Of a stretch of DNA of 64,000 nucleotides, positions 16,534-61,854 are shown in pieces (position 1 is the first letter of the stretch; each line of letters starts with the position of its first letter). The stretch spans positions 144,192 to 208,191 of the forward strand of contig CAYSXR010000001.1 of assembly GCA_964435035.1 (NCBI GenBank), in the 5' to 3' direction. The position numbers were made by a program, and so were the translations under genes. The notes beneath the pieces were generated by a model that made no database searches, had not been told where the DNA came from, and worked only from the letters and a program-made list of their open reading frames with translations. This DNA is from an uncultured Gammaproteobacteria bacterium. GTDB taxonomy: Bacteria > Patescibacteriota > Patescibacteriia > Magasanikbacterales > UBA922.

Positions 16534-16569
16534 ACAATAAAACTCTGAGTAATTTCAGAGTTTTATTGT
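16534..16569. terminator. Hairpin terminator between GC-rich islet and tRNA-Lys
   Basis: acaataaaactctga-gtaatt-tcagagttttattgt, with a T-run on the plus strand. Confidence 0.6.
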
Positions 16570-16574
16570 TTTTG

Positions 16575-42070: not shown

Positions 42071-42183
42071 TAAATTCAAAACTTAAATCTCAAAATTCAA
42101 AACTGGAATTCAAAATTCCGGGAGATGAAAGTTTTAAGATTTAAGTTATAGTTTTGAACTTTGAGTTTTACATTTTGAATTTA
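42071..42183. repeat. A/T-word intergenic repeat (family C, copy 1)
   Basis: Built from aaattcaaaac / cttaaa / gttttgaac words. Shares the exact 20-mer gttttgaactttgagtttta with 61816-61835 and the 16-mer aaattcaaaacttaaa with 51673-51688. Confidence 0.6.
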
Positions 42184-43377: not shown

Positions 43378-43399
43378 ATTATTTTTTAAATCTGTGTGT

Positions 43400-46240
43400 A
43401 TGGTAGCGATATCCCCCGAACAATCAGTACCGCAAGAATCACGAAAGAAAAAAACACCTGATACGGTAAAAATAGAGAAATATAGTGAGGTGTGGGAGCA
43501 TGCAAAAAATCTGGAGGGTAAAATAAAAAAACTCAAAGAACATGCAATCGATGCGGATGAAATCGGAGAAATAGAAGGTATTCTCAAAGATGCAAAAGGA
43601 TATTTTTCTAGATTTGGAGAGAAAAAAGATAAAGGCAGAAGTGTTGCTCAGCTTGAAGAGAGGCGTAAGGCTGCAGTAGAAAAACTTACTGACCTTAATC
43701 GGCGCATGGTGTCGATGCTTGAAAAATTAGGACAACCAATTCCTAATACTCTTTTGTCGTACAAAGACAGTGGATTTGTTGATATTGTAAAAGAATCTAA
43801 TAAAGAAGGGTTGTCTGAAGAAAAAAAAGAAGAAGTGTCTGAAGTTGTGGGTGCTCATATAATTCAGCCCCCTGAAAATTATTCTAAAGAGTCATTGGGT
43901 GATTCAGAAATTGGTGGTGTGAATAGTATCGAGGCGCCAGAGAAGAAGGAAGAAGTGTTGGTTTCTGCCGAAGAGTCGCCTGTAAATGTACGAGAGGAAT
44001 CATCCTCACCTGAAACACCAATAGAAGATGTTATCAAGATTTCTTCAGGAGGAAAAACATATGAATTCGGCTGGCACGAACAGGTGGTTTACACTACTGC
44101 AAAGGGTAAGCAGCTTGAGTGTATTGTGCTTGGAAAATCAAATGATGAGAATAAGCCGGGGCTTATTTTGAAAGATCTTGAAAAAGGAAAAGTATTTGCT
44201 CTTGGTGCAGATGCGGTTGCAAAACGGGTACATGTTTCTGATGGTGAAATAGTTTCTCCACGTGTAGAAAATAATAAGGCCGATTCTGGTCAATCTGCTG
44301 AAGGTGAAGATATTGATAGAGAAGAAAAAGCTGCTCTTGAAAAAATGAAAAAAGACCAGAGGGAAGTAGAAGAGAAAAAAGCTCAAGAATTAAGTGAATT
44401 ATTAGCACAAGCTGGAAAGTCTGCCGAAGATGACACTTCATTTGTACACACAAGCACAGATGAGAGGGGAAGTTTCGATCAGAAGATGGTTGATAAACTT
44501 GTAGCTGATGGATCGATTGAAAAAATTAACACGTTATTGAAAAATAAATCCGAGGTGTGGGTACAGGAAGATGGTAAATGGTATCAGGGTGTAGTGCAAG
44601 ATATTACCGGAGCACAGGTGGGTGTTACTGTAGGAGAGGAGGGTCGAGAGAAAAAATATTTCTATGTGGATGCTGAAGAATTTTTGGGCATGCAGGATCG
44701 AGCGAAAAAATTGTTGAAATACAAAAAAGAATTAGAGCTTCCCTCGGTGGTGGTGGACACCGAATTCCTCGCTCGTCCAGATACGATCACCAAAGGTGAA
44801 ATTTTTACTCCTCCGACCGAGAGAAAGACCGTACCTGACGTGCCTCTAGTGAGTATTGATACTCCATTGCCGGTACGAGAACGAAAAACCTACCCAGAAG
44901 TTTCAGAAAAAAAAGCAATACAGATGATTCAATCAGTCGCTGAAGAATTTGAAAAAACATGGAAAGGAATGCGCATGATGACGACAGAAAAACAAAAGAC
45001 CGGATGGCTCCAGAGTAAGGAAGTTGAACGAGAGATGACGGTGACAGAAAAAAAGGAGCAATTAGAAGCGTGGCTTGATATGGTGGAGCAGGCATTTGAT
45101 TCACTCGACAAGCAAAAAGATGGGACACACATGGAAAAACCAGTACTCATGTGGCATCAGGCACAGGCATTAATTCGCGCATTAGAAAATGAACTTCGGT
45201 ATACAGAAGAAACGAATAAAAGTGAAGAGTGGGATCACGCACTTGAGGCTTTTAGTAGTATAATTAATGAAAGAAGCACACGTCTCAAGGAAAAAAAGAA
45301 AGGGTCATTGATTGCACCGTGGGCCATGAAAACGACACTTGCTGCCTTGGGTGCTTTTGCAATCGGAAATGCAACAAACAATCGAATAGAAGATGTGGCT
45401 GCAGTGAGTGAACGATATATGGAAGCAGGTGAAAAAAAATATGAATTACCCAGAGAAGAACATACGGGTGATGCACAGAGAAATATGCTAGATTTTGTAA
45501 TTAATATGAATCGGATGATAAACGAGCCCACACTTTCGATAACACCCGTTGCAATTGATGCTCGACTTACTCCACAGATCAAGGATAAAATATCAGGGAA
45601 AGTTCCGGGTTTGGCTGGTGCAGAAATAGCATCTGATGGAAAATCAGTTACATTGACTTTTGATAATAACCAAACAGTTGAAAGTCGTCCTGAAAAAATA
45701 CAAAAGTCGGGTCGCGATAGTTGGAAACTGAAGACAGCTGAGAAAAAGGGTCCGGAGTATGGCGAACAAATGTTGAGAGAATTAAGGAAAGTATTGGGTG
45801 AAGTAAAGCAAGAGTTTCCTGATATGTTTCGTGGACCAGAATCATCTTCCAAGCAAAAGAGAGTAGTAAGAACAGTAGTACAGGCCGAAAAGAAATTACG
45901 AGAAGCAGAGGTAGTAATACCGAGAAGTGGTGAGGCGAGAAGACAGTTGGAACAAGTAAAACAGGTGTTGGAACAAGTAAAACCAGGACTCGAATCTATT
46001 TCAAAAGAGATTGTAGATGAGATTAAGGCAGAGGATCTCGAATTGCCACAGGATGTATTTGTGCGTTTTAGTCGAGAGGTTACGTTTGATCCAAAGGCAG
46101 ATGCTCTATTTGAGGAATGGGGAAATGCACGAAATTCTCTCAAAGCAGCACAGGAAGCAGGAGATCAAGAGGGGGTAAAGAAAAGTAACGAGGAGTTGCG
46201 TAAGGTTATTGAAAAAATAACGAAAGAGTATAGTAAATAA
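43400..46240 (+). CDS. Large charged hypothetical protein with two SH3/Tudor-like beta segments
   Basis: About 946 aa, rich in Lys/Glu coiled-coil-like stretches, with one central hydrophobic segment (TTLAALGAFAIGNA). ATG 43400 preferred over GTG 43394. Confidence 0.6.
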   Translation: MVAISPEQSVPQESRKKKTPDTVKIEKYSEVWEHAKNLEGKIKKLKEHAIDADEIGEIEGILKDAKGYFSRFGEKKDKGRSVAQLEERRKAAVEKLTDLNRRMVSMLEKLGQPIPNTLLSYKDSGFVDIVKESNKEGLSEEKKEEVSEVVGAHIIQPPENYSKESLGDSEIGGVNSIEAPEKKEEVLVSAEESPVNVREESSSPETPIEDVIKISSGGKTYEFGWHEQVVYTTAKGKQLECIVLGKSNDENKPGLILKDLEKGKVFALGADAVAKRVHVSDGEIVSPRVENNKADSGQSAEGEDIDREEKAALEKMKKDQREVEEKKAQELSELLAQAGKSAEDDTSFVHTSTDERGSFDQKMVDKLVADGSIEKINTLLKNKSEVWVQEDGKWYQGVVQDITGAQVGVTVGEEGREKKYFYVDAEEFLGMQDRAKKLLKYKKELELPSVVVDTEFLARPDTITKGEIFTPPTERKTVPDVPLVSIDTPLPVRERKTYPEVSEKKAIQMIQSVAEEFEKTWKGMRMMTTEKQKTGWLQSKEVEREMTVTEKKEQLEAWLDMVEQAFDSLDKQKDGTHMEKPVLMWHQAQALIRALENELRYTEETNKSEEWDHALEAFSSIINERSTRLKEKKKGSLIAPWAMKTTLAALGAFAIGNATNNRIEDVAAVSERYMEAGEKKYELPREEHTGDAQRNMLDFVINMNRMINEPTLSITPVAIDARLTPQIKDKISGKVPGLAGAEIASDGKSVTLTFDNNQTVESRPEKIQKSGRDSWKLKTAEKKGPEYGEQMLRELRKVLGEVKQEFPDMFRGPESSSKQKRVVRTVVQAEKKLREAEVVIPRSGEARRQLEQVKQVLEQVKPGLESISKEIVDEIKAEDLELPQDVFVRFSREVTFDPKADALFEEWGNARNSLKAAQEAGDQEGVKKSNEELRKVIEKITKEYSK

Positions 46241-46261
46241 CATTTTGATATAGAGAAGAAA

Positions 46262-46297
46262 AATCACTGATAGCAGTCGGTGATTTTTTGTTTTTTT
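46262..46297 (+). terminator. Rho-independent terminator
   Basis: aatcactga-tagcag-tcggtgatt hairpin, then ttttttgttttttt. Confidence 0.75.
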
Positions 46298-46416
46298 AAG
46301 GTGTTTGGGCTAGAAATGTGCTAAAAAGTATGAGAGTAGTCAAAAGGGGCTACACCCTTTACTTTTTGTCAAAATTTGCATAAAGTACGTTAATGCTTAT
46401 TGTGGCAGGGGTATAC

Positions 46417-46445
46417 TTGACAAAAAGGTATAAATATGCTATAGT
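46417..46445 (+). promoter_or_regulatory. Consensus sigma70-type promoter (TTGACA-17-TATAGT) driving the GC-rich island
   Basis: acTTGACAaaaaggtataaatatgcTATAGTac is near-identical in layout to the promoter at 63780-63808. Confidence 0.7.
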
Positions 46446-46655
46446 ACTGCGTTATTTCAAAAGCCCTACATAGGTCTTCGAAATAGCAATCCAGGGGCCC
46501 CATCAGAGAGGATATGTGTCCCTTCTGATGGAGTCCCTGGTCTAGGAGCTCCCACTGTGGCCCGTTCGGGCAATAGTGAGAGCCTTAGGCTCATTACAAT
46601 CGAAGAAGCTAGAACACGTGCCCCTATGAAAGGGGTGTAAACGAGGAGATCAGAA
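46446..46655 (+). promoter_or_regulatory. Structured 5' leader of about 200 nt
   Basis: Nested helices ccaggg[ccatcaga...tctgatgg]ccctgg, gcccg-tt-cgggc, gagcc-tta-ggctc, and cccct-atgaa-agggg just before SD gaggag. No known riboswitch recognised. Confidence 0.45.
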
Positions 46656-48104
46656 ATGATTGACCGCAACAAGAAGAGCAACAAGAAGAGCACGCCCGTG
46701 AAGGGCGGCGCTGCGGCGAACCCGCAGGCGATGGCAACCGTGGCGTCTCACAAGGACGACACGGCTCAGATCGATGTGGTGGTCGAGACCAATCCCGAGG
46801 CCGACAAGGTCGAGGGTGAGGTCAAGGCCGATGAAGAGGCGAAGGTCGAAGAGACCGTCGCCACCGCCCCGACCGAGAACGTCGAGAAGAGCGAGGAGCC
46901 GGCCGTTGTGGTCGACCCCGAGCCCGAGCTCGAGCAGAAGCGGAACTTCCGTAAGGAAGACCTCCGCCTCCGGTACAACGACAACCCGCAGGTGCTGCTC
47001 ACCTCCGCGGATCTCAGCGAAGAGGACAAGGTCCTCATCGGCGAGATCGCGAGCGAGCAGAACCAGGTCGTCCGCGACTATGCCGCGCTGGCACAGGAGC
47101 TGACCGACGAGAAGGACCAGCTCGAGCAGAAGCTCGACGCGACCAACTCCAAGCTGGGGAACGTCACCAACCTCATCGCGACCACGGTCAAGGAGACCGT
47201 GGGACAGGTGGACAAGGAGACGTCGGCCTTGATCGAAGGTCTGAAGATCGAGATCGAGGGCGTCATCGGCAAGGGTAACGGCGTGAAGAACGCCGTCACG
47301 AAGATCGGGGACGATGTCAACAAGGACATCGGCTCGCTCAAGGGTCAGGTCAACGCCAACGCCAAGTCGGTCAACGACAAGGTCGATGGGATGGCCGCGA
47401 TGCTCGGGAAGATCGACGAGAAGATCTCCGAGATCAAGTCCCCGCCGCCCCCGCAGCAGCCGCCGGCTCAGTCCAGCACCACCCCGTCCTCCGGATCCTC
47501 CGGGTGGCCGTGGGTCGTGGCCGTGGGCATCTTGCTCGCGGCCGTGATCGCGGTCTTCCTCCTGAACAAGGATGTGAAGATCGAGGTCCAGGTGCAGCAG
47601 CCGGCGGTGAACACCGTGAAGGGTGTGGTGCCGCCGGTGGTGGACAACGCTCTCGGGGTGACCTCGCAGCAGGTGACCCCGGGTGGACCGGGGAATCCGA
47701 TCGTGCCCACGGTGGTCGGTGCCACGTCCGAGGATCCCTGCAAGGGGAAGGTCGGTGGGGAGCTCGGGTCGTGTGTCCTTCAGCTGGAGAAGTTCCGGCC
47801 GAAGGGGTTCACTGATGCGCACTGGAACACGGTCGTCGAGACCTTCCAGAACGTCATCATGGTCCCCTTGAGCGTTCCGTTCAAGGACATCAAGCACCAC
47901 GACAAGGCCATCGAGCACAACATGAGGAAAGACGCGGCACTGCAGGCGTGCGTCGACGCATACGTCTTGAAGACGGATGATGTCGAGTCGAACGTCCGGT
48001 GTCAGCGGGCGGTCGATTGTCTGTTCACTTCGGTGGACGAGGCAGCACAGTGCTACATGACGCATACGCGCTCGATCACGGGCGTTTTGGTCACTGTCAA
48101 CTGA
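46656..48104 (+). CDS. Bitopic membrane protein: acidic coiled-coil N-domain, Pro-rich linker, TM, Cys-containing C-domain (island gene a)
   Basis: 482 aa with an SD upstream. TM helix WPWVVAVGILLAAVIAVFLL. Seven Cys residues, all C-terminal to the TM. Extreme GC3 codon usage (AAG/GAG/GAC/AAC/ATC). Confidence 0.75.
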   Translation: MIDRNKKSNKKSTPVKGGAAANPQAMATVASHKDDTAQIDVVVETNPEADKVEGEVKADEEAKVEETVATAPTENVEKSEEPAVVVDPEPELEQKRNFRKEDLRLRYNDNPQVLLTSADLSEEDKVLIGEIASEQNQVVRDYAALAQELTDEKDQLEQKLDATNSKLGNVTNLIATTVKETVGQVDKETSALIEGLKIEIEGVIGKGNGVKNAVTKIGDDVNKDIGSLKGQVNANAKSVNDKVDGMAAMLGKIDEKISEIKSPPPPQQPPAQSSTTPSSGSSGWPWVVAVGILLAAVIAVFLLNKDVKIEVQVQQPAVNTVKGVVPPVVDNALGVTSQQVTPGGPGNPIVPTVVGATSEDPCKGKVGGELGSCVLQLEKFRPKGFTDAHWNTVVETFQNVIMVPLSVPFKDIKHHDKAIEHNMRKDAALQACVDAYVLKTDDVESNVRCQRAVDCLFTSVDEAAQCYMTHTRSITGVLVTVN

Positions 48105-48119
48105 ACCTCAACCCAACTA

Positions 48120-48145
48120 GTCCGACCTCCCTCGGGAGGTCGGAC
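48120..48145 (+). other. Intercistronic GC hairpin
   Basis: gtccgacctcc-ctcg-ggaggtcggac forms a perfect 11-bp stem between island genes a and b. No T-run, so probably not a full terminator. Confidence 0.5.
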
Positions 48146-48159
48146 ACAGGAGAACAGAC

Positions 48160-49095
48160 ATGAAGCAGCTCGTCGCGAAGATCGTGGTTTATTACATCGT
48201 ACTTCTCTCGGCGTCGGCCTTCGGCTCGACGCCGAACCCCGGTGACCAGTTCGACCTGATCCAGGGAGGGATCCCGGCGAAGGTCGAGGTCACGCAGCAG
48301 GAGATCAAGGCGATGGACACGTCCATCGACCAGCTCCTGAAGCGCACCGGCGGTCTCCTCAAGAAGGACGCCGAGCTCAAGAAGGAGCTCGAGGACCTCA
48401 AGAAGGAGCTCGAGGACCTCAAGAGCAAGCTCGACAAGGTGGTGAAGCCGGGTGATCTCACGGTCATCCGAGTGGATCTGGGAAGGTTGTGGACGCAAGT
48501 CAACAACCATGGACAGCGCCTCACCGAGCTCGAGCAGGACGTCGAAGATCTGAAGAGGAGCGACAAGGCTCAGGACGATCGACTCGGTGATCACGACCAG
48601 AAAATCGAGGACATCAACAAGCGCCTCGATCGAGGTCTCGGAGTGAAGTTCGGCATCGGAGCCTATGGCGTCTACGGGACGCAAGGCTCGATCAACGGTG
48701 GAGCTTCGGCTCGGCTGAGGATCCCGCTGTCCGGTGGATGGCAAGCGATCGTCAATGGCGGAGTCGGCGGCAACCATCAGGGAGCTTCAGGATTCGCCGA
48801 TCTGTCGGTCGGCTACCAGTTCGCGAGCGGCATCTACCTGGGGGCAACCCTCGGTATCGACGCCAACTGCGACGGTATGTGCACCAGGCTCCTCACGGAG
48901 ATCTGGGGCGCAGGTCCCGACATCGGCTACCTGTCCGACGATGGACTCTTCATCCGGGCTCGTGTGCTCTTCGGGAGCGAGTGGATCAAGGGTCCGACGA
49001 TGCAGATCGAGTACCCGGATCGTACGGTCTTCAAGACCGACGAGTCCCGGGAGTTCGGCATCTCGGCTTTGATCCAGCTCGGTCACGAGTTCTAG
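48160..49095 (+). CDS. Signal-peptide protein with coiled coil and C-terminal OMP-like beta-barrel ending in Phe (island gene b)
   Basis: 311 aa with signal peptide ..LLSASAFG and heptads ELKKELEDLKKELEDLKSKLD. The last 150 aa or so have alternating Gly/aromatic beta-strand patterns and end ..ALIQLGHEF. Confidence 0.7.
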   Translation: MKQLVAKIVVYYIVLLSASAFGSTPNPGDQFDLIQGGIPAKVEVTQQEIKAMDTSIDQLLKRTGGLLKKDAELKKELEDLKKELEDLKSKLDKVVKPGDLTVIRVDLGRLWTQVNNHGQRLTELEQDVEDLKRSDKAQDDRLGDHDQKIEDINKRLDRGLGVKFGIGAYGVYGTQGSINGGASARLRIPLSGGWQAIVNGGVGGNHQGASGFADLSVGYQFASGIYLGATLGIDANCDGMCTRLLTEIWGAGPDIGYLSDDGLFIRARVLFGSEWIKGPTMQIEYPDRTVFKTDESREFGISALIQLGHEF

Positions 49096-49346
49096 ACTTC
49101 AAGATTCGGGGAGTGTCTCTACTCCCCGGACCCCTCACCTCGCCGACTTCAAGGCAGAAGGGATAAGACAATGAGACAAACACTCGAGTAAACGGCGTGG
49201 TCGCACAACGCGGCCCCCAATACTGGAGCATGGGCGATATTTCGAAAGAAATGTCGCCCCTCGCACAGCGTATATCAGTCTCTGGTATGCGATGACGAGA
49301 AAAGCATCTCACGTAAATCCCGACTAAATCGGGACACGTGACAAGC

Positions 49347-49375
49347 TTGACAAACGAGAGTATTTATGCTATACT
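49347..49375 (+). promoter_or_regulatory. Consensus sigma70-type promoter (TTGACA-17-TATACT)
   Basis: gcTTGACAaacgagagtatttatgcTATACTaag, located inside an AT-rich spacer of the GC-rich island. Confidence 0.7.
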
Positions 49376-49498
49376 AAGCTGTTACAAAATAAAGAAGTGC
49401 CATGGGAAATCTCGATGTAGTCGGGGTATCTATGGTAGATCGTCATGCACTGCATGGTGGTCCATTGAACCTTACAATATATGCGAAATGTATAAAAA

Positions 49499-49543
49499 GC
49501 TTGAAAGGCTAGAAAGGCCGGAAAGGCTTGAAATGCTAGAGAA
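49499..49543 (+). repeat. Five tandem 9-nt repeats (GCYNGAAAG) in a 5' leader
   Basis: gcttgaaag gctagaaag gccggaaag gcttgaaat gctagagaa. Confidence 0.75.
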
Positions 49544-49551
49544 CGTATCTT

Positions 49552-49677
49552 GTGACGTGAAGAAAGAAATTTTCAATAAGAATTTTTTCTTAGCGTCACG
49601 AGGAGTTCTCAGGCGTGAAAACTTCTCGTGTGGTACACGAGGAAGCAACAACAAAACCCCGATTGAATCGGGGAGGA
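49552..49677 (+). promoter_or_regulatory. Leader with mutually exclusive hairpins and a hairpin abutting the SD
   Basis: gtgacg...cgtcac hairpin. cttctcgtg (49622-30) can pair with cacgaggag (49597-605) or with cacgaggaag (49636-45). ccccga-ttgaa-tcgggg overlaps the 5' edge of SD ggaggag. Confidence 0.45.
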
Positions 49678-49685
49678 GAAGAGTC

Positions 49686-51452
49686 ATGAAGAAGTTCAAC
49701 AAGTTCCTGTTCGTCGTCATGTTCATCTCGTTCGTCGCGGCCATCACGGGCTGCGCCGATCACGGTGGCGAGACGGTCGTCGTCAAGGGTGACGATGGGG
49801 AGAGCGTCAAGCTCTGCCCCGAGGAGCATCAGTGCTCCTCGGCCGAGTTCTGCAACTCGCAGGGTCTCTGCGTCATCCCCGGTGCCAACGGCACCAACGG
49901 CGAGGACTTCGAGCGATGCTCGAATAGTCGTGGTGACTGTGTCGGTAACGAGCTCTGCAACTCGCAGGGCGTGTGTGTGCTCGAAGGTCCGCAAGGGCCG
50001 GCGGGGGAGTCCTGTACCGTGTCGACGAAGGTCGACGGGTGCTTCTTCCTCTACTGTGGCGCAAGCGTCACGGAGATCTGCGACGGCGAGGACGGTGTGT
50101 CCTGCACGGTCGCAGGGCAGCCGGACGGCAGCGCTCAGGTCGAGTGCTCGGACGGTTCGTTCGCGACCATCCTCCCCGGACAAGACGGCGAGGACGGTCT
50201 CAACGGCACGAGCTGCACGGCCTCGACGGTCAAAGGTTGCCTCGTGGTGACCTGCGGAACGCAGTCGACGGAGATCTGCCCGGAGGATCTTCCGGATCCC
50301 GAGCCGGTCGACGGCTGCCAGAAGGACTCGGACTGCACGGACGGCAGCGAGTGCACCAACGACATCTGCGATCTCAACACCGGCACCTGCCGGTACGTGT
50401 CGCAGGTGTGTGATGACGGCGTCGCCTGCACCAACGACTGGTGTGACACGAACGGCTACTGCCGTTCGACCGCGGACAATGATCAGTGCAGCGGCGGCGA
50501 CTTCTGCTTGCCGACCGGTTACTGGTTTTGGTCCTCGGCGGTGGGTTCTGAGGAACTCGCTGACGGAGGCTGTTACGAGTGCCGCTGGGACTCTGATTGT
50601 GCCGACGGCGACGCGTGTACGGTCGACACCTGCGACGCGGGTGTTTGCAAGAAGGAAACGCGCGAGTGCCCCACGGGTGCGACGTGCGTCGAGTACTCGA
50701 GCAACTACTACGACGACTCGGAGTGGAACTACGTGTGCCAGGACAATCCGTCGTGCAGCAACAACAGCCAGTGCGACGACGGCAAGTACTGGACGACGGA
50801 TGCGTGCGTGGCCGGGGAGTGTGTCTACACCCAGGTGTCGTGCAACGACAACAACGCATGCACCGTGGACACGGTGAACTCGAGTGGGCAGTGCACCTAC
50901 GCCCAGATCTCGTGCGACGATGGCAAATCCGCCACGGTCGACACGTGCTCTGCGAATACGGGGTGCGTACACACGCCGGTGAACACCGGCTGCGAGCACG
51001 ATCTCGATTGCGATGACGTCGACGGTACGACCACGGACCTGTGCGAGGACAACGGGAGCTGTACACATACTCCCAATGCCCAGTGCAAGTCCCTGACGGT
51101 CAAGGTCGGCTGGGCCATCCTGTGGTCGCGCGGTCCCGAGATCGGAACCACCAATGTCCCGATGGGCAACTGGCGTAGCTGCGAGGAAGACGAGGCGGAG
51201 AACTGCCGTACCATGTCGTGGTGCGGTGACGACATCGTGGAGTTCAATGTTCAGCAGATGCCGAACGTGGCAGGTGCCGACTGGCTCGTGAAGAACGAGA
51301 AAGGCGACAGCCCTTGCACGTCGAACGCAGATGCGACCTTGAACTACACGCCCGCTGATCTCTTCGTCGGGGCGACGCCGGTGCAGAAGGGCTGTTCGCT
51401 CTTCTGCGACCCGAACGGGTACACCAACTACACCTGCGATTCCGCGGAGTAG
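49686..51452 (+). CDS. Cys-rich repeat lipoprotein (island gene c)
   Basis: Start MKKFNKFLFVVMFISFVAAITGC (lipobox) follows SD ggggaggag. Repeats of the form C.(D/N)D.C....G.C, resembling Dictyostelium-CTDC-type units. The ORF-track start at 49338 was rejected. Confidence 0.75.
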   Translation: MKKFNKFLFVVMFISFVAAITGCADHGGETVVVKGDDGESVKLCPEEHQCSSAEFCNSQGLCVIPGANGTNGEDFERCSNSRGDCVGNELCNSQGVCVLEGPQGPAGESCTVSTKVDGCFFLYCGASVTEICDGEDGVSCTVAGQPDGSAQVECSDGSFATILPGQDGEDGLNGTSCTASTVKGCLVVTCGTQSTEICPEDLPDPEPVDGCQKDSDCTDGSECTNDICDLNTGTCRYVSQVCDDGVACTNDWCDTNGYCRSTADNDQCSGGDFCLPTGYWFWSSAVGSEELADGGCYECRWDSDCADGDACTVDTCDAGVCKKETRECPTGATCVEYSSNYYDDSEWNYVCQDNPSCSNNSQCDDGKYWTTDACVAGECVYTQVSCNDNNACTVDTVNSSGQCTYAQISCDDGKSATVDTCSANTGCVHTPVNTGCEHDLDCDDVDGTTTDLCEDNGSCTHTPNAQCKSLTVKVGWAILWSRGPEIGTTNVPMGNWRSCEEDEAENCRTMSWCGDDIVEFNVQQMPNVAGADWLVKNEKGDSPCTSNADATLNYTPADLFVGATPVQKGCSLFCDPNGYTNYTCDSAE

Positions 51453-51669
51453 TCGTACCCACAAACATTTCGTGTAAAAGCTTTGAGTAGCCTAGCTACC
51501 AGACTCAAAGTTCAATCAACGTAGCGGGAGGGGGCACAAGCGTTCATCTGAATTGCGCAAGCGATTCAGTGACGAGTGCCTCCCTCCCATTCCAACATAT
51601 CTTTATCAAAATTCAGAACTCAGATTACAGTGAGAGACTAGTGAGTATTGGTAGAGAGATGTGGGGATG

Positions 51670-51727
51670 GAAAATTCAAAACTTAAAACTTAAAACTCAA
51701 AATTTAGATTTAAGTTGTGAGTTATTA
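51670..51727. repeat. A/T-word intergenic repeat (family C, copy 2) inside the GC-rich island
   Basis: gaaaattcaaaacttaaaacttaaaactcaaaatttagatttaagttgtgag. Confidence 0.55.
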
Positions 51728-51795
51728 CAAACCCTTTCCATCATTATGATGGTTTCAATTCCCCTCAACCGCGACGACAGAAATGTCACGCGCGG

Positions 51796-51821
51796 AAAAA
51801 ACCCGCGCATGCGGGTTTTTT
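51796..51821. terminator. Strong bidirectional terminator
   Basis: aaaaaacccgc-gcat-gcgggtttttt. Confidence 0.85.
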
Positions 51822-51913
51822 AAATTCCATTACCTCGGGTATATCGTATAATGATGGTATATCTATGGTAGAGGAATTCTACACGCCAGTTCACAAAAAC
51901 CAGGAGGGGACAC

Positions 51914-52651
51914 ATGTTGGGTATGACGTTTCGTTTGTTTGTTTTCTGTCTCACCGTGTTCACCGCCGCATGCATCGAGGATATGCGGCGGGAGGAAGCG
52001 TCCATGGTCCAGGTCGATACGTCGACTGGCATCATGGATATGGTGGAGGAAGTCAAAGACGTACCAGATTCACGGGTCCGTGATCGGTATGATATCGAAT
52101 TTCCTCCTACAGCCGACGAGTGTGTCGTCGATGAATTCATCGCAGAGGGAAGCCCTTGCGATGATGGCGATGCATGCACGATCGATGTCTGTATCCAGGG
52201 CATGTGTCGTAATCGAGCTATCGACTGCGACGACGGAAATCCCTGGACGGATGACGAGTGCATCGTCGACACTGGGGCGTGCTCCAGTGTACATCGGGTG
52301 ACTCATTTCACCGTTCGCGCGGAGCGTCCGGGAAAGGTGAAGCTTTGGTATGGGAATCACACCGAGCCAGAGACCTATCCCATGAACTCGAGCTTCGAGA
52401 TCCAGAAGATGGATCTCTGCGTCGAGAACCGTGTGCTCACGCTCGCGGTAGAGGACGAAGAGTTCCCGGGAACCTACTGGGGTTGTAACCCTGGCCTTCC
52501 TTCGAAGAGGGAACTCGCAGTCGAGATCGACGGGGTGGACACGCCCGGTTATTTCGCTGCGGATCTCGGATGGGAGGTGCCCAACTCTGCGTGTGGTGGG
52601 AAGGGAGAGGGTGACCTCTACTTCTTGCGGGCGCAACTCGCATGTGACTGA
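51914..52651 (+). CDS. Small Cys-rich lipoprotein sharing the C-terminal domain of gene e (island gene d)
   Basis: SD aggagggg upstream. Signal peptide ..LTVFTAAC. Two Cys-rich units (CDDGDACTIDVC, CDDGNPWTDDEC). The C-domain motif CNPGLPSKRELAVEIDGV matches CNPGFPSKSTLTVMVNGV in gene e. Confidence 0.7.
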   Translation: MLGMTFRLFVFCLTVFTAACIEDMRREEASMVQVDTSTGIMDMVEEVKDVPDSRVRDRYDIEFPPTADECVVDEFIAEGSPCDDGDACTIDVCIQGMCRNRAIDCDDGNPWTDDECIVDTGACSSVHRVTHFTVRAERPGKVKLWYGNHTEPETYPMNSSFEIQKMDLCVENRVLTLAVEDEEFPGTYWGCNPGLPSKRELAVEIDGVDTPGYFAADLGWEVPNSACGGKGEGDLYFLRAQLACD

Positions 52652-52739
52652 TGACCGGGTGTCTCGCGAAGGATAGGATGGCGTATACGCTATGCTGTCC
52701 ACCTTCGCGAGCACCACTAATTCAACAAATAGAATTATA

Positions 52740-52768
52740 TTGACAAAATACTCTTTTCCTGATATGTT
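52740..52768 (+). promoter_or_regulatory. Putative promoter (TTGACA-17-TATGTT)
   Basis: The -35 is consensus and the -10 is weak. A leader of about 220 nt follows, with the long hairpin ctagagg..ccctctag (52881-52946). Confidence 0.45.
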
Positions 52769-52998
52769 GATACGATTGTATCTACGCATATCGGATATCT
52801 AGAGAGGTATCTGGTATGCGCCACTGGAGAATCATTCTCAAGTGTGTATGTTCATTATAATCACATAAGTTTTTTGTTCAGCTAGAGGATGGGTGCAGAT
52901 AGAGGTATATGTAACATATCTTGTATCGATAGCCACCCTCTAGCTGAGACACAGTGTCACTGCTGGAGTTCAACGGCCTCACAACGGAGGAAGGCCAA

Positions 52999-55041
52999 AT
53001 GCGTCTGAAGAACAACAACAACCGGATGTTCATCATCACGGTTGCCCTCGCCATGGGGTTCATGGCGGCGTGCACGGAACACGGCGGCGACGAGCCGATC
53101 GTGGTCGTGATGAAGGCGGACCTCGACCTCGACGAGGTCCCCAACAACGTCGACAACTGCCCGGGGGACAACAACCCCGATCAGTTGGACACCGACGGCG
53201 ACGGCATGGGCGATGCGTGCGACAACGACGTCGACGGCGACGGGGTCTTGAACCCCGCCGACAACTGCCCCGACAACTTCAACCCCGACCAGGCGAACCT
53301 CGACAAGGTCCTGGCCGACAGCGGCAACGTCACCGTGGTCGCGGATCTCTTCGGAGACGTCTGCGACAACGACGACGACGGCGACGTGGTCTGCGACCCC
53401 TGGCTCGGCGTGGACGGGTGGGAAGAATTCCATCCCGGTCAGGGCGAGACGTGTCAGGGCGAGGACAACTGTCCCGACGTCGCCAACGCCGACCAGGCGA
53501 ACCTCGACAAGGACTTCGAGGGCGACGTCTGCGACAACGACGTCGACGGCGACGGCGACCTCAACGGCGCAGACAACTGCCCGCTCGTGACCAACGCCGA
53601 CCAGGCAAACCTGGATCGGGACGACTGGGGCGACGCCTGCGACACCGACGACGACAACGACAGCTTCTGCGACGAAGCTGCCCCCGTCTCGATGCCGCGA
53701 AATGCGCCCGCGATGCCCCTCTGCGAGGGCGAGGACAACTGCCCCCGCTTCAAGAACGCGGGACAGGAAGACATGGACGAGGACGGCATGGGCGACGTCT
53801 GCGACGACGACTGCGACGGGGACCTCTACCCCGAAGCGTCGCCCTGGGATTTCCCCAACCTGTCGTGCTTCGTGTATTGCAATCCGGAAGGTCCGGGAAC
53901 CGAGTGCGACGACGCGAACACGTGCACCACGGACACCTGCAACGGGCAGGGCGTTTGCGAGTACGTGTTCACGCAGTCCGAGACGTGCGAATGCGTCTTG
54001 GACTCCGACTGCGAGCCGACCGACGCCTGCGTCACCGAGATGGCGTGCGTGGAAAACACGTGCGTCGAGACCGGATGGAAGGTCCTGACCGACGGGGACA
54101 ACTGCACCATCGACACCTGTGATCCCTCGACCGGCGTGGTCACCCACGTCGAGAAGGACTGTGGTGGGGACCTCTGCGGAGGAGGCCTCTCGTGTAACCG
54201 CATGACCGGAGAGTGCAGCACACCCGTGCCGCAAATTCCGATCAACGACAGCAACGCCTGCACCACCGACGCGTGCGATCCCGAGACCGGCGTGGTCACC
54301 CACGTCGCGATCGTCTGCGACGATGGGAACGCATGCAACGGCACCGAGACGTGCAACCCGGCTTCCGGGTGCGTCGCGGGTACGCCGCTCACGTGCGATG
54401 ACGGAAGCGTCTGCACGATCGACAGTTGTTCGGCAAACACCTGCCAACACGTGGCGGTGACGACGAACGACAACAACATGTGCACCACCGACACCTGCGA
54501 TCCCGAGATGGGGGTGCAGCACACGGCGGTGGTGTGCAACGACGTGAACTCCAACACCACCGACACCTGCGATCCGGCGACGGGTTGCGTGCACACGCCG
54601 ACGGGGAACTGCACGGTCAACGCGGATTGCAACGACAGCAATCCCCTGACCTACGACACCTGCGTCGCGCTCGTCTGCCAACATGTGGAAGGTGTCCGCG
54701 TGCAGGTCTCGTCGACCGACACGTCGGAGACCTGGCAGGTCAATTTCTACTACAACGGTACGACGATCTCCGGCAACCTGCCCTTCGACGGGACCTTGCC
54801 GAAGACGCTCGCATGCAGCTGGGGCGCCGACATCGCCGTCAACCGTCCGAGCACGAACTTGTTCTTGGACTGCAACCCGGGGTTCCCCTCGAAGTCCACC
54901 CTGACCGTCATGGTCAATGGTGTCACGAAGGCGAACGACTTCCAGGTTCGTTCGCAGGCATGCGACGGCGCTCCGCCGGGCAACCTGTGGCTCTCCGACG
55001 AGAGCGGTGACAACGACCTGGGATGCCCCGCGGCACCCTAG
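52999..55041 (+). CDS. Lipoprotein with thrombospondin-type-3-like Ca-binding repeats and Cys-rich repeats (island gene e)
   Basis: SD ggaggaagg, then MRLKNNNNRMFIITVALAMGFMAAC. Repeated DNCPxxxNxDQxDxDxDGxGDxCDxDxDGD units, then repeated CxxDxCDPxTGxxH units. The mature N-terminus CTEHGGDE resembles CADHGGE of gene c. Confidence 0.75.
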   Translation: MRLKNNNNRMFIITVALAMGFMAACTEHGGDEPIVVVMKADLDLDEVPNNVDNCPGDNNPDQLDTDGDGMGDACDNDVDGDGVLNPADNCPDNFNPDQANLDKVLADSGNVTVVADLFGDVCDNDDDGDVVCDPWLGVDGWEEFHPGQGETCQGEDNCPDVANADQANLDKDFEGDVCDNDVDGDGDLNGADNCPLVTNADQANLDRDDWGDACDTDDDNDSFCDEAAPVSMPRNAPAMPLCEGEDNCPRFKNAGQEDMDEDGMGDVCDDDCDGDLYPEASPWDFPNLSCFVYCNPEGPGTECDDANTCTTDTCNGQGVCEYVFTQSETCECVLDSDCEPTDACVTEMACVENTCVETGWKVLTDGDNCTIDTCDPSTGVVTHVEKDCGGDLCGGGLSCNRMTGECSTPVPQIPINDSNACTTDACDPETGVVTHVAIVCDDGNACNGTETCNPASGCVAGTPLTCDDGSVCTIDSCSANTCQHVAVTTNDNNMCTTDTCDPEMGVQHTAVVCNDVNSNTTDTCDPATGCVHTPTGNCTVNADCNDSNPLTYDTCVALVCQHVEGVRVQVSSTDTSETWQVNFYYNGTTISGNLPFDGTLPKTLACSWGADIAVNRPSTNLFLDCNPGFPSKSTLTVMVNGVTKANDFQVRSQACDGAPPGNLWLSDESGDNDLGCPAAP

Positions 55042-55226
55042 AACTTCTCCTGCGACGACTGCAGGAGCATCTCGAAGTGAACGTGTGATTCGCTTCTGTA
55101 GGTGAATGTTCGAAGACAATCACACAAACCGGGGGAAGTGCGCTCGCTACTACAGCGACCGCTTCCTCCCCTCTACTCTGAATTCAAGTACGATCTTGAG
55201 AATAGAGTAGAAGGGCACGCTAGAAT

Positions 55227-55248
55227 AACCGCACTATGCGGTTTTTTT
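55227..55248 (+). terminator. Rho-independent terminator at right edge of island
   Basis: aaccgca-cta-tgcggtt followed by ttttt. Confidence 0.8.
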
Positions 55249-55253
55249 GTTAT

Positions 55254-55355
55254 GTCATTCCGAGCGAGTGCACCCGAGCCGAGGAATCTTTCCTGTATAA
55301 GACCATGTAAGAAAGATTCCTCGACTCCCTCGGAGACTCGGTCGCTCGGAATGAC
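55254..55355. repeat. Palindromic MITE-like element (family D, solo copy)
   Basis: Perfect 14-bp termini gtcattccgagcga / tcgctcggaatgac and inner 13-bp inverted repeat cgaggaatctttc / gaaagattcctcg. Its arms match the arms of the copies at 61107 and 61583. Confidence 0.75.
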
Positions 55356-55416
55356 TATCGTCACTTTTTCTTTTTTTAATTTCCCCCTTGCTTGTGATAT
55401 ACTTATCTAGAATTTT

Positions 55417-61074: not shown

Positions 61075-61106
61075 AGTAAAAGCTTAAAACGCAAAAGTAT
61101 TAATGT

Positions 61107-61244
61107 GTCATCCCGAGGGAGGAGTGCATCCGACGATTCGAGGGATCTTTCCTGCATAAGGCTGATTAGGAAAAATGTATTTAAAGCTTAGTAAGGACTT
61201 GGTAGGAAAGATTCCTCGACTCGGGTGCACTCGCTCGGAATGAC
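61107..61244. repeat. Palindromic MITE-like element (family D, copy 2)
   Basis: gtcatcccgaggga...tcgctcggaatgac. The right arm matches the reverse complement of the left arm of 55254-55355 with one mismatch. Flanks extend the inverted repeat (taatgt/acatta). Confidence 0.75.
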
Positions 61245-61287
61245 ACATTAAGTAATTGTATTGGGTGGTAAAAAGTAAGGGGGTAGT

Positions 61288-61566
61288 ATGAAAACATACT
61301 ATGTGTATATTATGTCGAGCATTAATCAAACACTCTATGTCGGTATAACCAATAATTTATTCCGTAGAGTTTTTGAACATAGGATGAAACTCAATGAAGG
61401 TTTTACAGAAAAATATCAGATATATAAATTAGTATATGCTGAATACTATACAAATGTGCAGGAGGCAATACGTCGTGAAAAACAAATCAAAAAGTGGCGT
61501 CGAGAGAAGAAAATCAAATTGATTGAAAAAGATAATCCCGATTGGGTGGATCTCGCAAGGAATTAA
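61288..61566 (+). CDS. GIY-YIG nuclease family protein (small, stand-alone)
   Basis: 92 aa: YYVYIMSS..QTLYVGITNNLFRRVFEHRMK...E...REKQIKKW. Confidence 0.8.
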   Translation: MKTYYVYIMSSINQTLYVGITNNLFRRVFEHRMKLNEGFTEKYQIYKLVYAEYYTNVQEAIRREKQIKKWRREKKIKLIEKDNPDWVDLARN

Positions 61567-61582
61567 TGGTGTGATTGGTATT

Positions 61583-61719
61583 GTCATTCCGAGCGACCGA
61601 GTCTTCGAGGGAGTCGAGGAATCTTTCCTGTATAGTATTCTGTAAAAAAATGTAACTATAGTTTGGTAAATACTTTGCAGGAAAGATTTCTCGACTCGGG
61701 TGCACTCACTCGAAATGAC
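61583..61719. repeat. Palindromic MITE-like element (family D, copy 3)
   Basis: gtcattccgagcgaccgagtcttcgagggagtcgaggaatctttcctg ... caggaaagatttctcgactcgggtgcactcactcgaaatgac. It has the same two arm types as the 55254 copy, in inverted order. Confidence 0.75.
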
Positions 61720-61794
61720 AGTGAATAGCTCGGAATCAGGTCACAGAAGTTGCAAATATGCTTGGATCAAGTATCATTACCTTGAAGAATAAGA

Positions 61795-61843
61795 AGTTTT
61801 AAATTTTTAGTTTCAGTTTTGAACTTTGAGTTTTAAGTTTTGA
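61795..61843. repeat. A/T-word intergenic repeat (family C, copy 3)
   Basis: Contains the exact 20-mer gttttgaactttgagtttta (61816-61835) also found at 42151-42170. Confidence 0.55.
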
Positions 61844-61854
61844 GATAGATATCT

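What the first reader, a model, noticed from the sequence alone, without database searches (positions are those of the whole stretch)
49376..49685. AT-rich leader of about 300 nt with a 9-nt tandem repeat array and alternative hairpins ahead of a GC-rich lipoprotein gene
Downstream of the consensus promoter at 49347-49375 the leader contains several structured elements. (i) Five tandem 9-mers GCYNGAAAG at 49499-49543. (ii) A long gtgacg...cgtcac hairpin at 49552-49599. (iii) A segment cttctcgtg (49622-30) that can pair either with cacgaggag (49597-605) or with cacgaggaag (49636-45), giving mutually exclusive structures. (iv) A ccccga-ttgaa-tcgggg hairpin whose 3' arm runs into the SD ggaggag. 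This is the general shape of an attenuator or riboregulator, and the tandem GAAAG units could be a protein-binding platform. I cannot match it to any known riboswitch class.
Basis: seen in the sequence. Interest (0 to 1): 0.55.

Follow-up and report, generated by a model that had tools for sequence, protein, structure and literature searches.

The report
Conserved structured leader of lipoprotein gene
The ~310-nt stretch ahead of this lipoprotein gene is a real, heavily folded mRNA leader that is kept, with compensating base changes, in related uncultured (Magasanikbacteria-like) bacteria, but it lacks the parts of a classical attenuator, and its eye-catching 9-nt repeat is a recent add-on found only in this lineage.

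Summary
All four features are at the stated coordinates and exceed chance. The leader folds at z = -7.0. The 9-mer array has 0 matches expected by chance.

Host and setting:
- The host is a ~40% GC Magasanikbacteria-like CPR bacterium.
- The gene lies in a 63% GC island of fast-diverging surface-protein genes (GC3 0.65-0.89, against about 0.30 elsewhere).

I recovered four other full-length versions of the leader from related genomes (L003, L021, L023, L029):
- The near-consensus promoter is conserved.
- Hairpins H1 and H2 are conserved, with 7 pairs changed on both sides.
- The long hairpin is conserved.
- A four-segment module (49549-49645) has two near-isoenergetic folds in every ortholog.
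- The plus strand always folds better than the minus strand, which points to RNA-level structure.

- No hairpin is followed by a U-tract.
- No leader segment pairs with the SD.
- There is no conserved upstream ORF.
- There is no Rfam match.
- The 9-mer array is absent from all four other leader types and has the same copy number in the one other strain sampled.

Most likely this is a 5'-UTR expression or stability module, conserved together with the signal peptide while the mature protein is swapped. Whether the two-fold module senses anything is untested.

The parts
49347..49375 (+). Near-consensus sigma-70-type promoter with extended -10: TTGACA, 17 nt, TGcTATACT
   Evidence: 11 of 12 matches. 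The -35, the TG and the -10 are conserved in L002, L003, L021, L023 and L029, while spacer bases vary. It is 74% identical to the promoter ahead of g1 at 46416-46446 (family D19). The TSS is inferred at about 49382 and has not been mapped.
49376..49685 (+). 5' leader (5' UTR) of the lipoprotein gene, about 305-310 nt
   Evidence: z = -7.0. Orthologs give z = -5.1 to -7.5. The plus strand folds at -107.8 and the minus strand at -76.7 kcal/mol, with 21 G-U pairs among 103. It is single-copy in the window. No Rfam match.
49398..49437 (+). Hairpin H1: conserved outer stem, variable inner stem and tip
   Evidence: 4 inner pairs keep pairing with both sides changed. The tip exists in at least 4 sequence versions that all still pair.
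49438..49462 (+). Hairpin H2
   Evidence: 10 pairs. 3 have both sides changed (A-U to G-C, G-C to A-U, C-G to G-C). 100% of cells are paired.
49467..49478 (+). Conserved unpaired motif GAACCUUACAAU
   Evidence: Invariant in 4 of the 5 leader types. L029 has GUACAUUACAAC. CCUUACAA also occurs in the non-homologous leader of L022.
49499..49543 (+). Five tandem 9-mers (GCYNGAAAG); a lineage-specific insertion
   Evidence: Absent from L003, L021, L023 and L029, which carry about 30 unrelated nt at that position. Identical, with the same copy number, in L001 and in strain SRR34217543 (L031).
49549..49602 (+). Long A/U-rich hairpin H4. Its base is the S1:S2 pairing (CUUGUG / CACGAG).
   Evidence: 22 pairs. 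17 are invariant and 4 vary on one side compatibly. 98.9% of cells are paired.
49597..49630 (+). Alternative hairpin S2:S3 (cacgaggagtt / aacttctcgtg)
   Evidence: 11 bp in the window, 12 bp plus a bulge in L003 and L021, and a perfect 11 bp in L029 (and by hand).
49622..49645 (+). Hairpin S3:S4 (cttctcgtg / cacgaggaag)
   Evidence: Present in the MFE of the S1-S4 module of the window, L023, L003 and L029; in L021 the module MFE is the S2:S3 fold. U-A changes to C-G on both sides in L003 and L021, and the register shifts in L029 (by hand).
49646..49656 (+). Unstructured CA/A-rich linker (CAACAACAAAA)
   Evidence: Unpaired in the MFE. The region is A-rich in all orthologs.
49657..49673 (+). SD-adjacent hairpin CCCCGA-UUGAA-UCGGGG
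   Evidence: Pairing probability about 1.0. Kept in L023 and L029, where a compensating change extends the stem. Replaced by CCGG-N9-CCGG in L003 and L021. Read on the minus strand it looks like a terminator.
49672..49688 (+). Shine-Dalgarno GGAGGAG and start codon (ATG at 49686)
   Evidence: Read directly from the sequence. The SD pairs only weakly (0.2) with codons +18 to +22, and never with upstream leader segments.
49686..51452 (+). g3: lipoprotein, 588 aa. Signal peptide plus lipobox ITGC, and Dicty_CTDC Cys-rich repeats. GC3 is 0.84.
   Evidence: Orthologs share only the signal peptide and GCADHGG.ETV. Their mature part is collagen-like.
49096..49312 (+). IG2a: a conserved ~215-nt closed multi-hairpin RNA domain that starts at the stop codon of g2, upstream of the promoter
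   Evidence: 68 predicted pairs, 12 with both sides changed, in 7 sequences. No Rfam match.
49313..49343 (+). 31-nt insertion just upstream of the -35, carrying the palindrome TCCCGActaaaTCGGGA
   Evidence: Present in the window, L002 and L023. Absent from L003, L021, L004 and L029.

Best explanation
49376-49685 is the 5' untranslated leader of a surface-lipoprotein mRNA.

Shown:
- It lies directly downstream of a strong, conserved sigma-70-type promoter; transcription from that promoter is inferred, because the TSS is unmapped.
- It folds in the plus sense into a chain of conserved domains: H1, H2, a conserved unpaired motif, a long A/U-rich hairpin, a four-segment module, an A-rich linker and an SD-adjacent hairpin.
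- The four-segment module can adopt two folds. One is two side-by-side hairpins (S1:S2 + S3:S4). The other is a three-way junction (S1:S4 + S2:S3).
- The ribosome-binding site is left largely free.
- The module is inherited together with the signal-peptide coding region, while the mature part of the protein is replaced or diverges.

Inferred:
- The leader acts as an expression module. It would set mRNA lifetime, processing and translation efficiency for an abundant, fast-evolving surface protein.
- The ~22-bp hairpin is a plausible RNase III-type processing site.
- The two-fold module could be a point where a trans-acting factor or a processing event changes the fold.

The 9-mer array is a recent tandem duplication that adds one extra small stem-loop between conserved domains. 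It is not part of the conserved mechanism.
For: Structure is real and on the RNA strand:
- z = -7.0. Orthologs give -5.1 to -7.5.
- The plus strand is more stable than the minus strand in all five leaders, and the window has 21 G-U pairs.

Covariation:
- 97.9% of cells are paired, against 40-56% when partners are slid.
- 7 pairs have both sides changed, against 0-2 when slid.
- The covariation score is 0.237, against 0.119 or less when slid.

Promoter: the hexamers are conserved while the spacer varies.

Two folds of the module: within 0-3.5 kcal/mol of each other in all five orthologs.

RBS is not sequestered by the leader.

Leader and signal peptide are conserved while the mature protein is swapped:
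- g3 aligns to L023 only over residues 1-40, to L021 over 1-109 at 39% identity, and to L029 over 1-108 at 35%.
- In strain SRR34217543 the last 227 nt of the leader are 226/227 identical, while the coding sequence diverges from the third codon onward.

The same design recurs in the island:
- The leaders of g1 and g5 also have near-consensus promoters.
- Their folding z-scores are -6.9 and -5.4.

Precedent: S-layer slpA mRNAs combine a strong promoter with a stabilising structured 5' UTR that exposes the RBS (PMC10221546).
Against: - No TSS, half-life or processing data exist. The role in stability or translation is inferred only from anatomy and analogy.
- H1 begins about 16 nt after the inferred TSS. 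Classical 5' stabilisers sit at the very 5' end (my own knowledge).
- Only five distinct leader types from close relatives are available. Core genes are 90-93% identical at the nucleotide level for L023 and L005/L021, the only leader-bearing relatives for which core genes were held. The types are also mosaics of each other. Covariation events are therefore few and not independent.
- Overall leader identity is 81% to L023 and about 70-85% to L021. That is only moderately above the neutral yardstick of 75% and 66.5% at four-fold sites.
- A conserved pair of near-isoenergetic folds is unexpected for a purely passive stabiliser.
Confidence: 0.5

Rival explanations
1. A true riboregulator. The S1-S4 module would be a switch set by a metabolite, protein, small RNA or temperature. 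Its output would be something other than intrinsic termination or SD masking, for example exposing or hiding an RNase cleavage site.
For: - Four alternately complementary segments are conserved in all five leader types.
- The two folds lie within 0-3.5 kcal/mol of each other, and L021's MFE is the alternative fold.
- The U to C change in the shared segment S3 stays compatible with both partners. With S2 a G-U becomes G-C. With S4 either A becomes G, or the C pairs with the formerly bulged G.
Against: - There is no U-tract terminator on the plus strand.
- The SD and AUG are never partners of leader segments.
- No aptamer-like family is matched.
- S1 resembles S3 and S2 resembles S4, so any such repeat creates alternative folds automatically.
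- The downstream gene is a structural surface protein with no obvious ligand logic.
Confidence: 0.2
2. A DNA-level role. The conserved intergenic blocks would serve mainly as homology anchors for exchanging divergent surface-protein alleles between strains. Their RNA structure would be secondary.
For: - Between two strains the host gene g0 is 640/640 identical and the last part of the leader is 226/227 identical. Yet g1 is 89% and g2 93% identical at the nucleotide level, with the changes clustered in patches.
- L023's leader is a mosaic of window-type and L003-type segments.
- In L022, IG4, IG5 and g5 are 88-94% identical to the window, against 46% at neutral sites.
Against: - This does not explain strand-specific folding (31 kcal/mol better on the plus strand, many G-U pairs).
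- It does not explain the compensatory changes inside hairpins.
- It is compatible with, rather than an alternative to, a UTR function.
Confidence: 0.15
3. The 9-mer array is the functional core. It would be either a platform for a repeat-binding RNA protein, or a slippage-prone tract that phase-varies expression.
For: The array is statistically real and unique in the window.
Against: - It is absent from all four other leader types.
- The units are only 78% alike.
- Copy number and sequence are identical in the window, L001 and strain SRR34217543.
- It contains only one GGA, and no regular UAG/GAG spacing (from the sequence).
Confidence: 0.05
4. An independent small RNA gene, or a repeated or mobile intergenic element such as a REP or MITE, rather than a leader. 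Alternatively, a 5' extension of the coding frame starting at GTG 49338.
For: - A strong promoter is followed by stable hairpins.
- The frame upstream of the ATG is open for 116 codons, and the 9-nt period is in frame.
Against: - There is no plus-strand terminator before the ATG.
- The leader is single-copy in the window, and there is no hit in viral contigs.
- Ortholog lengths from promoter start to ATG are about 340, 314, 323 and 321 nt. The differences are not multiples of 3.
- The ATG at 49403 is lost in L021.
- GTG 49338 lies upstream of the promoter.
- GC is 43% here, against 63% in the gene.
Confidence: 0.05

Closest known systems
Stabilising structured 5' UTRs of abundant surface-protein mRNAs (Lactobacillus slpA, review PMC10221546; E. 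coli ompA and B. subtilis aprE leaders, from my own knowledge)
   Same: - Strong promoter.
- Long 5' UTR with stable stem-loops.
- RBS left exposed.
- The cargo is an envelope or surface protein.
   Different: - This leader is much longer (~310 nt) and has several domains.
- The first hairpin is not at the inferred 5' end.
- It contains a conserved module with two folds.
- No half-life data exist, and there is no sequence relation.
Mycoplasma variable surface lipoprotein genes (vsp/vpma): conserved 5' UTR and signal peptide with a variable mature region (PMC3365025)
   Same: The leader and the lipoprotein signal peptide are conserved, while the mature part is replaced or hypervariable. The genes lie in a cluster of surface lipoproteins.
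   Different: - In Mycoplasma the conserved 5' block (~70 bp) is shared by many paralogs in one genome and is used by a Xer-type recombinase. Here it is single-copy per genome and conserved between orthologous loci.
- The g4 and g5 leaders are unrelated to this one.
- I did not search the window for a recombinase gene.
Four-segment transcription attenuators (trp-leader type; my own knowledge)
   Same: Segments 1:2, 2:3 and 3:4 are alternately complementary, and the folds are mutually exclusive.
   Different: - No U-tract follows the 3:4 hairpin.
- There is no leader peptide.
- There is no tRNA-sensing or ligand-sensing domain.
- Segments 1 and 4 can also pair, which gives a three-way junction.
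RNase III-processed leaders (E. coli pnp and rnc, phage lambda N and T7 early mRNAs; my own knowledge)
   Same: A dsRNA hairpin of about 22 bp with small internal loops inside a 5' leader. Cleavage there would free S2 and re-set downstream folding.
   Different: This is purely an anatomical resemblance. Neither the presence of RNase III in this organism nor any cleavage was tested.
Repeat platforms for RNA-binding proteins (CsrB/RsmZ GGA repeats; TRAP (G/U)AG repeats; my own knowledge)
   Same: A short motif repeated in tandem within a leader.
   Different: - The repeat is not conserved in orthologs.
- The motif is neither GGA nor (G/U)AG.
- There are only 5 imperfect units.

Membership tests
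Any curated Rfam family (riboswitches, T-box, leaders, thermometers, small RNAs) | Covariance-model match at or near the family's gathering score | tested here: not met
   There were no matches in the leader at gathering score. At E up to 10 the only hits were spurious miRNA-hairpin matches to the long hairpin (27 bits against a gathering score of 92) and a ROSE_3 hit upstream (13 bits against 43).
Rho-independent transcription attenuator (trp, T-box or riboswitch type) | Mutually exclusive antiterminator and terminator pairings | tested here: met
   S1:S2 + S3:S4 versus S2:S3 (+ S1:S4) is conserved in five orthologs, within 0-3.5 kcal/mol.
Rho-independent transcription attenuator (trp, T-box or riboswitch type) | A terminator hairpin followed by a U-tract before the gene | tested here: not met
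   There is no plus-strand terminator-like site in 49376-49685. S3:S4 is followed by CAACAACAAAA, and the last hairpin is followed by AGGAGAAG.
Rho-independent transcription attenuator (trp, T-box or riboswitch type) | A sensing element: a leader peptide, a tRNA specifier with T-box, or an aptamer | tested here: not met
   No upstream ORF is conserved. The indels are not multiples of 3, and the ATG at 49403 is lost in L021. No T-box or aptamer model matched.
Translational riboregulator or RNA thermometer | The SD or AUG is paired with an upstream anti-SD in one conformer | tested here: not met
   Base-pair probabilities show that the AGGAG core pairs only with codons +18 to +22 (0.2 in the window, 0.8 in L023), and never with the leader. 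The hairpin covers only two G. The CUUCUC:GAGAAG pairing that is possible in the window is absent in L003 and L021.
Stabilising 5' UTR of surface-protein mRNAs (slpA/ompA type) | A strong promoter, a long structured 5' UTR and an exposed RBS | tested here: met
   Promoter 11 of 12 matches. z = -7.0. The SD is unpaired in the MFE.
Stabilising 5' UTR of surface-protein mRNAs (slpA/ompA type) | A hairpin at the very 5' end, and a measured lengthening of mRNA half-life | not testable with these tools
   The TSS is unmapped. With the inferred TSS near 49382, H1 starts about 16 nt downstream. No expression data are available.
Variable surface lipoprotein module (Mycoplasma vsp/vpma type) | Conserved 5' UTR and signal peptide with a variable mature region | tested here: met
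Variable surface lipoprotein module (Mycoplasma vsp/vpma type) | The same 5' block shared by several paralogs in one genome, with a neighbouring site-specific recombinase | tested here: not met
   The leader is single-copy in the 64-kb window. The g1, g4 and g5 leaders share only the promoter hexamers. I did not search specifically for a recombinase.
Repeat platform for an RNA-binding protein, or a phase-variable tandem repeat | The repeat is conserved in orthologs (platform), or is polymorphic in copy number between strains (phase variation) | tested here: not met
   The array is absent from 4 of the 5 leader types. It has an identical 5-unit form in three assemblies from two strains. The sample is small.

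The most novel reading that the evidence does not exclude
The leader is one of a set of uncatalogued structured RNA domains that frame every gene of this island. They include a 215-nt closed multi-hairpin 3' element (IG2a) and the long 5' leaders of g1, g3 and g5.

The island genes are hypervariable and have GC3 of 0.65-0.89, in a CPR genome whose GC3 is about 0.30. In this reading the conserved, AT-richer, structured UTRs do two jobs. They act as expression scaffolds, and they act as fixed recombination anchors between which surface-protein coding 'cassettes' are exchanged or diversified.

The extreme, lineage-persistent GC enrichment of the coding parts would be a by-product of that process, for example GC-biased gene conversion, or would be selected together with it.
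Probability: 0.2. Interest if true: 0.7.

Novelty: new member of a known kind. Interest (0 to 1): 0.45.

Why it matters
CPR/Patescibacteria are uncultured, probably host-attached bacteria. Almost nothing is known about how they control their surface proteins, and few RNA motifs from them have been catalogued.

What this locus provides:
- Candidate cis-acting RNA elements supported by covariation: the leader, and the neighbouring 215-nt 3' element.
- A clear case where UTRs stay fixed while the surface-protein coding regions between them turn over and keep a codon composition foreign to the genome.

If the two-fold module or the long hairpin proves to be a processing or regulatory site, it would be a first handle on post-transcriptional control in this group.

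If not, the result is still useful. The striking 9-mer repeat and the 'attenuator' look are not the conserved, functional part.

Tried and rejected
- **Rfam.** I scanned at gathering score and at permissive E-values. Nothing credible turned up.
- **Orthologs through the lipoprotein itself.** This gave only an identical Logan contig. All other hits were repeat-only matches at 24-47% identity. I switched to the neighbouring genes g2 and g0, which produced loci L002-L005, L022-L024 and L027-L031.
- **Genome-collection scan with g2.** No result. An exact 20-mer from IG2a then found L021.
- **Metagenome scan with a leader 17-mer.** It returned 15 loci, none of them a homologous leader; L009 and L016 were inspected directly and are chance matches.
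- **Viral contigs.** No hits.
- **Upstream coding extension or leader peptide.** Rejected. Indels break the frame and start codons are lost.
- **MITE or REP element.** Rejected. The leader is single-copy.
- **SD masking by S3 (CUUCUC:GAGAAG).** Rejected. It is not conserved and is not seen in the ensemble.
- **ops/JUMPstart-like GGTAG.** Considered by eye. Its invariance is explained by pairing at the H1/H2 junction, and it matches only 6 of the 10 specified positions of the ops consensus as I recall it.
- **'Intergenic regions more conserved than the genes means extraordinary constraint'.** I first read the data this way, then corrected it. Core genes of L023 and L005/L021 are 90-93% identical (L022 about 80%). 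The unusual thing is therefore the hyper-divergence of g0-g3, not the conservation of the UTRs.
- **Literature.** Searches for Magasanikbacteria plus lipoprotein or GC-rich found nothing. The Gracilibacteria hypervariable-gene paper (PMC6851277) concerns a coding repeat and is not relevant here.

Full report
**Observation**

- The promoter TTGACA-17-TATACT, with a TG extension, lies at 49347-49375 and scores 11 of 12.
- Five 9-mers lie at 49499-49543. TRF reports period 9, 5.1 copies and 78% matches.
- A three-unit pattern matches nowhere else in 64 kb, with 0.00 expected from shuffles.
- The gtgacg/cgtcac hairpin extends to 49549-49602.
- cttctcgtg (49622-30) can pair with either cacgaggag (49597-605) or cacgaggaag (49636-45).
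- The ccccga/tcgggg hairpin (49657-73) abuts GGAGGAG, and the ATG is at 49686.
- Folding 49376-49700 gives -109 kcal/mol against -73.9 +/- 5.0 for dinucleotide shuffles, z = -7.0.

**Context**

The window is about 40% GC. The gene sits in a 63% GC island (46656-55041) of five plus-strand genes.
- The island genes are two coiled-coil proteins, g1 and g2 (only weak, sub-threshold coiled-coil Pfam hits), and three lipoproteins (g3-g5). The lipoproteins carry Dicty_CTDC or thrombospondin-3 repeats.
- Their GC3 is 0.65-0.89, against 0.26-0.45 for host genes.
- The spacers between them are 42-47% GC.
- Three spacers carry near-consensus promoters, at 46417, 49347 and 52740.
- All the spacers fold far better than shuffles, with z = -5.4 to -11.5.
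- Names attached to near-identical proteins identify the organism as Candidatus Magasanikbacteria-like, in the CPR.

**Homologous leaders**

The lipoprotein has no close relative apart from one identical contig. I therefore reached orthologous loci through the neighbouring genes g2 and g0 and through an exact 20-mer.

This gave four further full-length leader types (L003, L021 = L005, L023, L029). It also gave a second strain of the window's own type (L002 + L031).

The genomes behind L023 and L005/L021 are close relatives of the window's:
- Core genes such as infC, smpB and the tmRNA gene are 90-94.7% identical at the nucleotide level to L023 and L005/L021.
- Four-fold degenerate sites are 74.8% identical to L023 and 66.5% identical to L005/L021.
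- L003 and L029 could not be calibrated in this way, because no core-gene comparison was made for them.

The leader is 81% identical to L023. Its alignable blocks are about 85-90% identical to L021, and about 70% overall with gaps. That is moderately above the neutral level.

My first impression was that the spacers are exceptionally conserved. That was wrong. What is exceptional is that g0-g3 are only 40-57% identical in protein between these close relatives.

**Structure evidence**

On the five-row alignment A2 (four full-length leader types plus the partial L002) the consensus fold has 54 pairs:
- 97.9% of cells are paired, against 40-56% when the partners are slid.
- 7 pairs have both sides changed, against 0-2 when slid.
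- The covariation score is 0.237, against 0.119 or less when slid.

The evidence differs by helix:
- H2 (49438-62) has three double changes.
- The inner stem of H1 exists in at least four different sequences that all pair.
- The long hairpin H4 is nearly invariant, and its few changes are one-sided and compatible.

The plus strand folds better than the minus strand in all five leaders. In the window the values are -107.8 and -76.7 kcal/mol, with 21 G-U pairs among 103. The constraint therefore acts on a plus-sense RNA, not on a DNA palindrome.

The promoter hexamers are conserved while spacer bases vary.

**The alternative pairings**

| Segment | Sequence | Coordinates |
|---|---|---|
| S1 | CUUGUG | 49549-54 |
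| S2 | CACGAGG.. | 49597-607 |
| S3 | ..CUUCUCGUG | 49620-30 |
| S4 | CACGAGGAAG | 49636-45 |

Two folds exist in every ortholog. One is S1:S2 (the base of H4) plus S3:S4. The other is a three-way junction with S1:S4, the top of H4, and S2:S3. They differ by 3.5, 2.1, 0.8, 0 and 0.3 kcal/mol in the window, L023, L003, L021 and L029.

S3 carries a U to C change in L003, L021 and L029.
- With S2, this turns a G-U into a G-C.
- With S4, it is matched by A to G in L003 and L021, or the C pairs with the formerly bulged G in L029 (by hand).

This is consistent with selection on both folds. But it rests on one or two evolutionary events, and because S1 resembles S3 and S2 resembles S4, alternative folds arise automatically.

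**What is missing for an attenuator or riboswitch**

- No plus-strand hairpin in the leader is followed by a U-run.
- In the ensemble, the AGGAG core pairs only with codons +18 to +22 (probability 0.2 in the window). It never pairs with a leader segment, and the adjacent hairpin covers only two G.
- No upstream ORF is conserved. The length differences between orthologs are not multiples of 3, and the ATG at 49403 is lost in L021.
- Rfam gives nothing.
- The SD-adjacent hairpin is kept in L023 and L029 but replaced by an unrelated CCGG hairpin in L003 and L021.

**The 9-mer array**

- It is absent from all four other leader types. They carry about 30 unrelated nt at that position.
- Its last unit aligns with the TCTAGAC/TCTAAAC found there. 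The array therefore looks like a local tandem duplication.
- It is identical in sequence and copy number in L001 and in strain SRR34217543 (L031). In that strain the last 227 nt of the leader are 226/227 identical.
- It is therefore neither a conserved binding platform nor, on this small sample, a hypermutable tract.

**Interpretation**

The leader and the signal peptide travel together, up to GCADHGG.ETV. The mature protein differs: Dicty_CTDC repeats here, and collagen-like in L003, L021 and L023. In the second strain the coding sequence starts to diverge at the third codon, immediately after a perfectly conserved leader.

The best-supported reading is a 5'-UTR expression module for an abundant, fast-evolving surface lipoprotein.
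- It works like the structured, RBS-exposing slpA-type leaders (PMC10221546).
- In organisation it resembles the conserved 5' UTR plus signal peptide blocks of Mycoplasma vsp genes (PMC3365025).
- It is not a member of either family.

The ~22-bp H4 hairpin is a plausible RNase III site, and the two-fold module may be a regulatory point. Both ideas are inferences.

**Confidence**

| Reading | Confidence |
|---|---|
| Expression or stability module | about 0.5 |
| Genuine switch with an unconventional output | about 0.2 |
| Recombination anchor (not exclusive of the others) | about 0.15 |
| 9-mer array as the functional core | about 0.05 |
| Small RNA, mobile element or coding extension | about 0.05 |

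**Novelty and interest**

This is a new, uncatalogued member of a known kind, a structured cis-acting leader. It has a narrow known distribution in one group of CPR genomes. Its interest is moderate.

The more unusual observation is the island as a whole. Structured UTRs that stay comparatively conserved frame hypervariable coding regions whose GC3 of about 0.8-0.9 is foreign to the genome. A distant relative shows the same contrast at a syntenic site: in L026 the lipoprotein genes have GC3 of 0.75-0.82, against 0.39 for its Wzy gene, and that Wzy is only 32% identical to the window's.

Noticed in passing
window 46656-55041 (g1-g5); L026 923-2017 and 4001-5179: The five island genes have GC3 of 0.65-0.89, in a genome whose other genes have GC3 of 0.26-0.45. 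The spacers between them are 42-47% GC. A distant relative shows the same contrast next to the same Wzy/GT4 genes: lipoprotein genes at GC3 0.75-0.82, against 0.39 for its Wzy, which is only 32% identical to the window's. This is therefore not a recent transfer awaiting amelioration. It remains unexplained.
   Followed up: partly
window 49096-49312 (also L002, L003, L004, L021, L023, L029): A ~215-nt closed multi-hairpin RNA domain begins at the stop codon of g2 and ends about 35 nt before the g3 promoter. It has 68 predicted pairs, 12 with compensatory double changes, across 7 sequences, and no Rfam match. In L004 the sequence after it diverges from the g3 promoter before that contig ends, so it may belong to the 3' end of g2. 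It is a candidate new 3'-UTR or ncRNA element.
   Followed up: partly
window 46241-46655, 51453-51913, 52652-52998, 55042-55416: All other island spacers are also very structured (z = -7 to -10). All but the last fold better on the plus strand. They are conserved in relatives at 72-97% identity. Two carry near-consensus promoters (46417, 52740). The 3' parts of the spacers begin with G/C-rich hairpins of the GGGRAG...CUYCCC type that lack U-tracts.
   Followed up: partly
window 43394-51452 compared with L002/L031, L021, L023, L029: The proteins g0-g3 are only 40-57% identical between the window and L023 or L005/L021, whose core genes are 90-93% identical to it at the nucleotide level. L029 shows similar or lower protein identities, but its core genes were not compared. 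Between two strains, the g0 3' end is 640/640 identical, but g1 is 89% and g2 93% identical, with the changes in patches and about as many non-synonymous as synonymous codon changes. This points to mosaic allele exchange or targeted diversification.
   Followed up: partly
window 49319-49333, 49411-49425, 49658-49672: The only three matches to CCCGA-N5-TCGGG (up to 1 mismatch) in the 64-kb window all lie in this one spacer, against 0.9 expected. One is 13 nt upstream of the -35, one is at the tip of H1, and one is beside the SD. They occur together in the window, L002 and L023 type and are all replaced in the L003 and L021 type. They might be sites for a common factor, or they might simply be generic small GC hairpins, since the same motif also occurs outside the island in L023 and L029.
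   Followed up: partly
window 61075-61854, 15773-15912, 16351-16573, 15431-16350: Other spacers outside the island are also extremely structured (z = -12.3, -9.7 and -6.3). A second small GC-rich patch (an ORF with GC3 of 0.72) lies at 15431-15772.
   Followed up: no
window 51678-51706, 42072-42118, 61794-61844: Tandem 7-mers AAAACTT / AAGTTTT and relatives recur in several spacers. TTACAA occurs 4 times on the plus strand in 2188 nt of island spacers, against about 0.9 expected. CCUUACAA also appears in the non-homologous leader of L022 (15646-15653).
   Followed up: no
L021 (CAYUTO010000002.1); gene calls in L005, L022, L023, L029: The public record title calls this MAG 'uncultured Gammaproteobacteria', although its genes match the Magasanikbacteria-like window at 90-93%. 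Several GC-rich island genes in public gene calls are placed on the minus strand. These are probably miscalls caused by long antisense ORFs in GC-rich DNA.
   Followed up: no
L022 15420-15797: In a relative that lacks g2 and this leader, the g3-like lipoprotein gene has a non-homologous leader built on the same plan: several long hairpins, then a C5...G5 hairpin directly before AAAGGA and the ATG.
   Followed up: no
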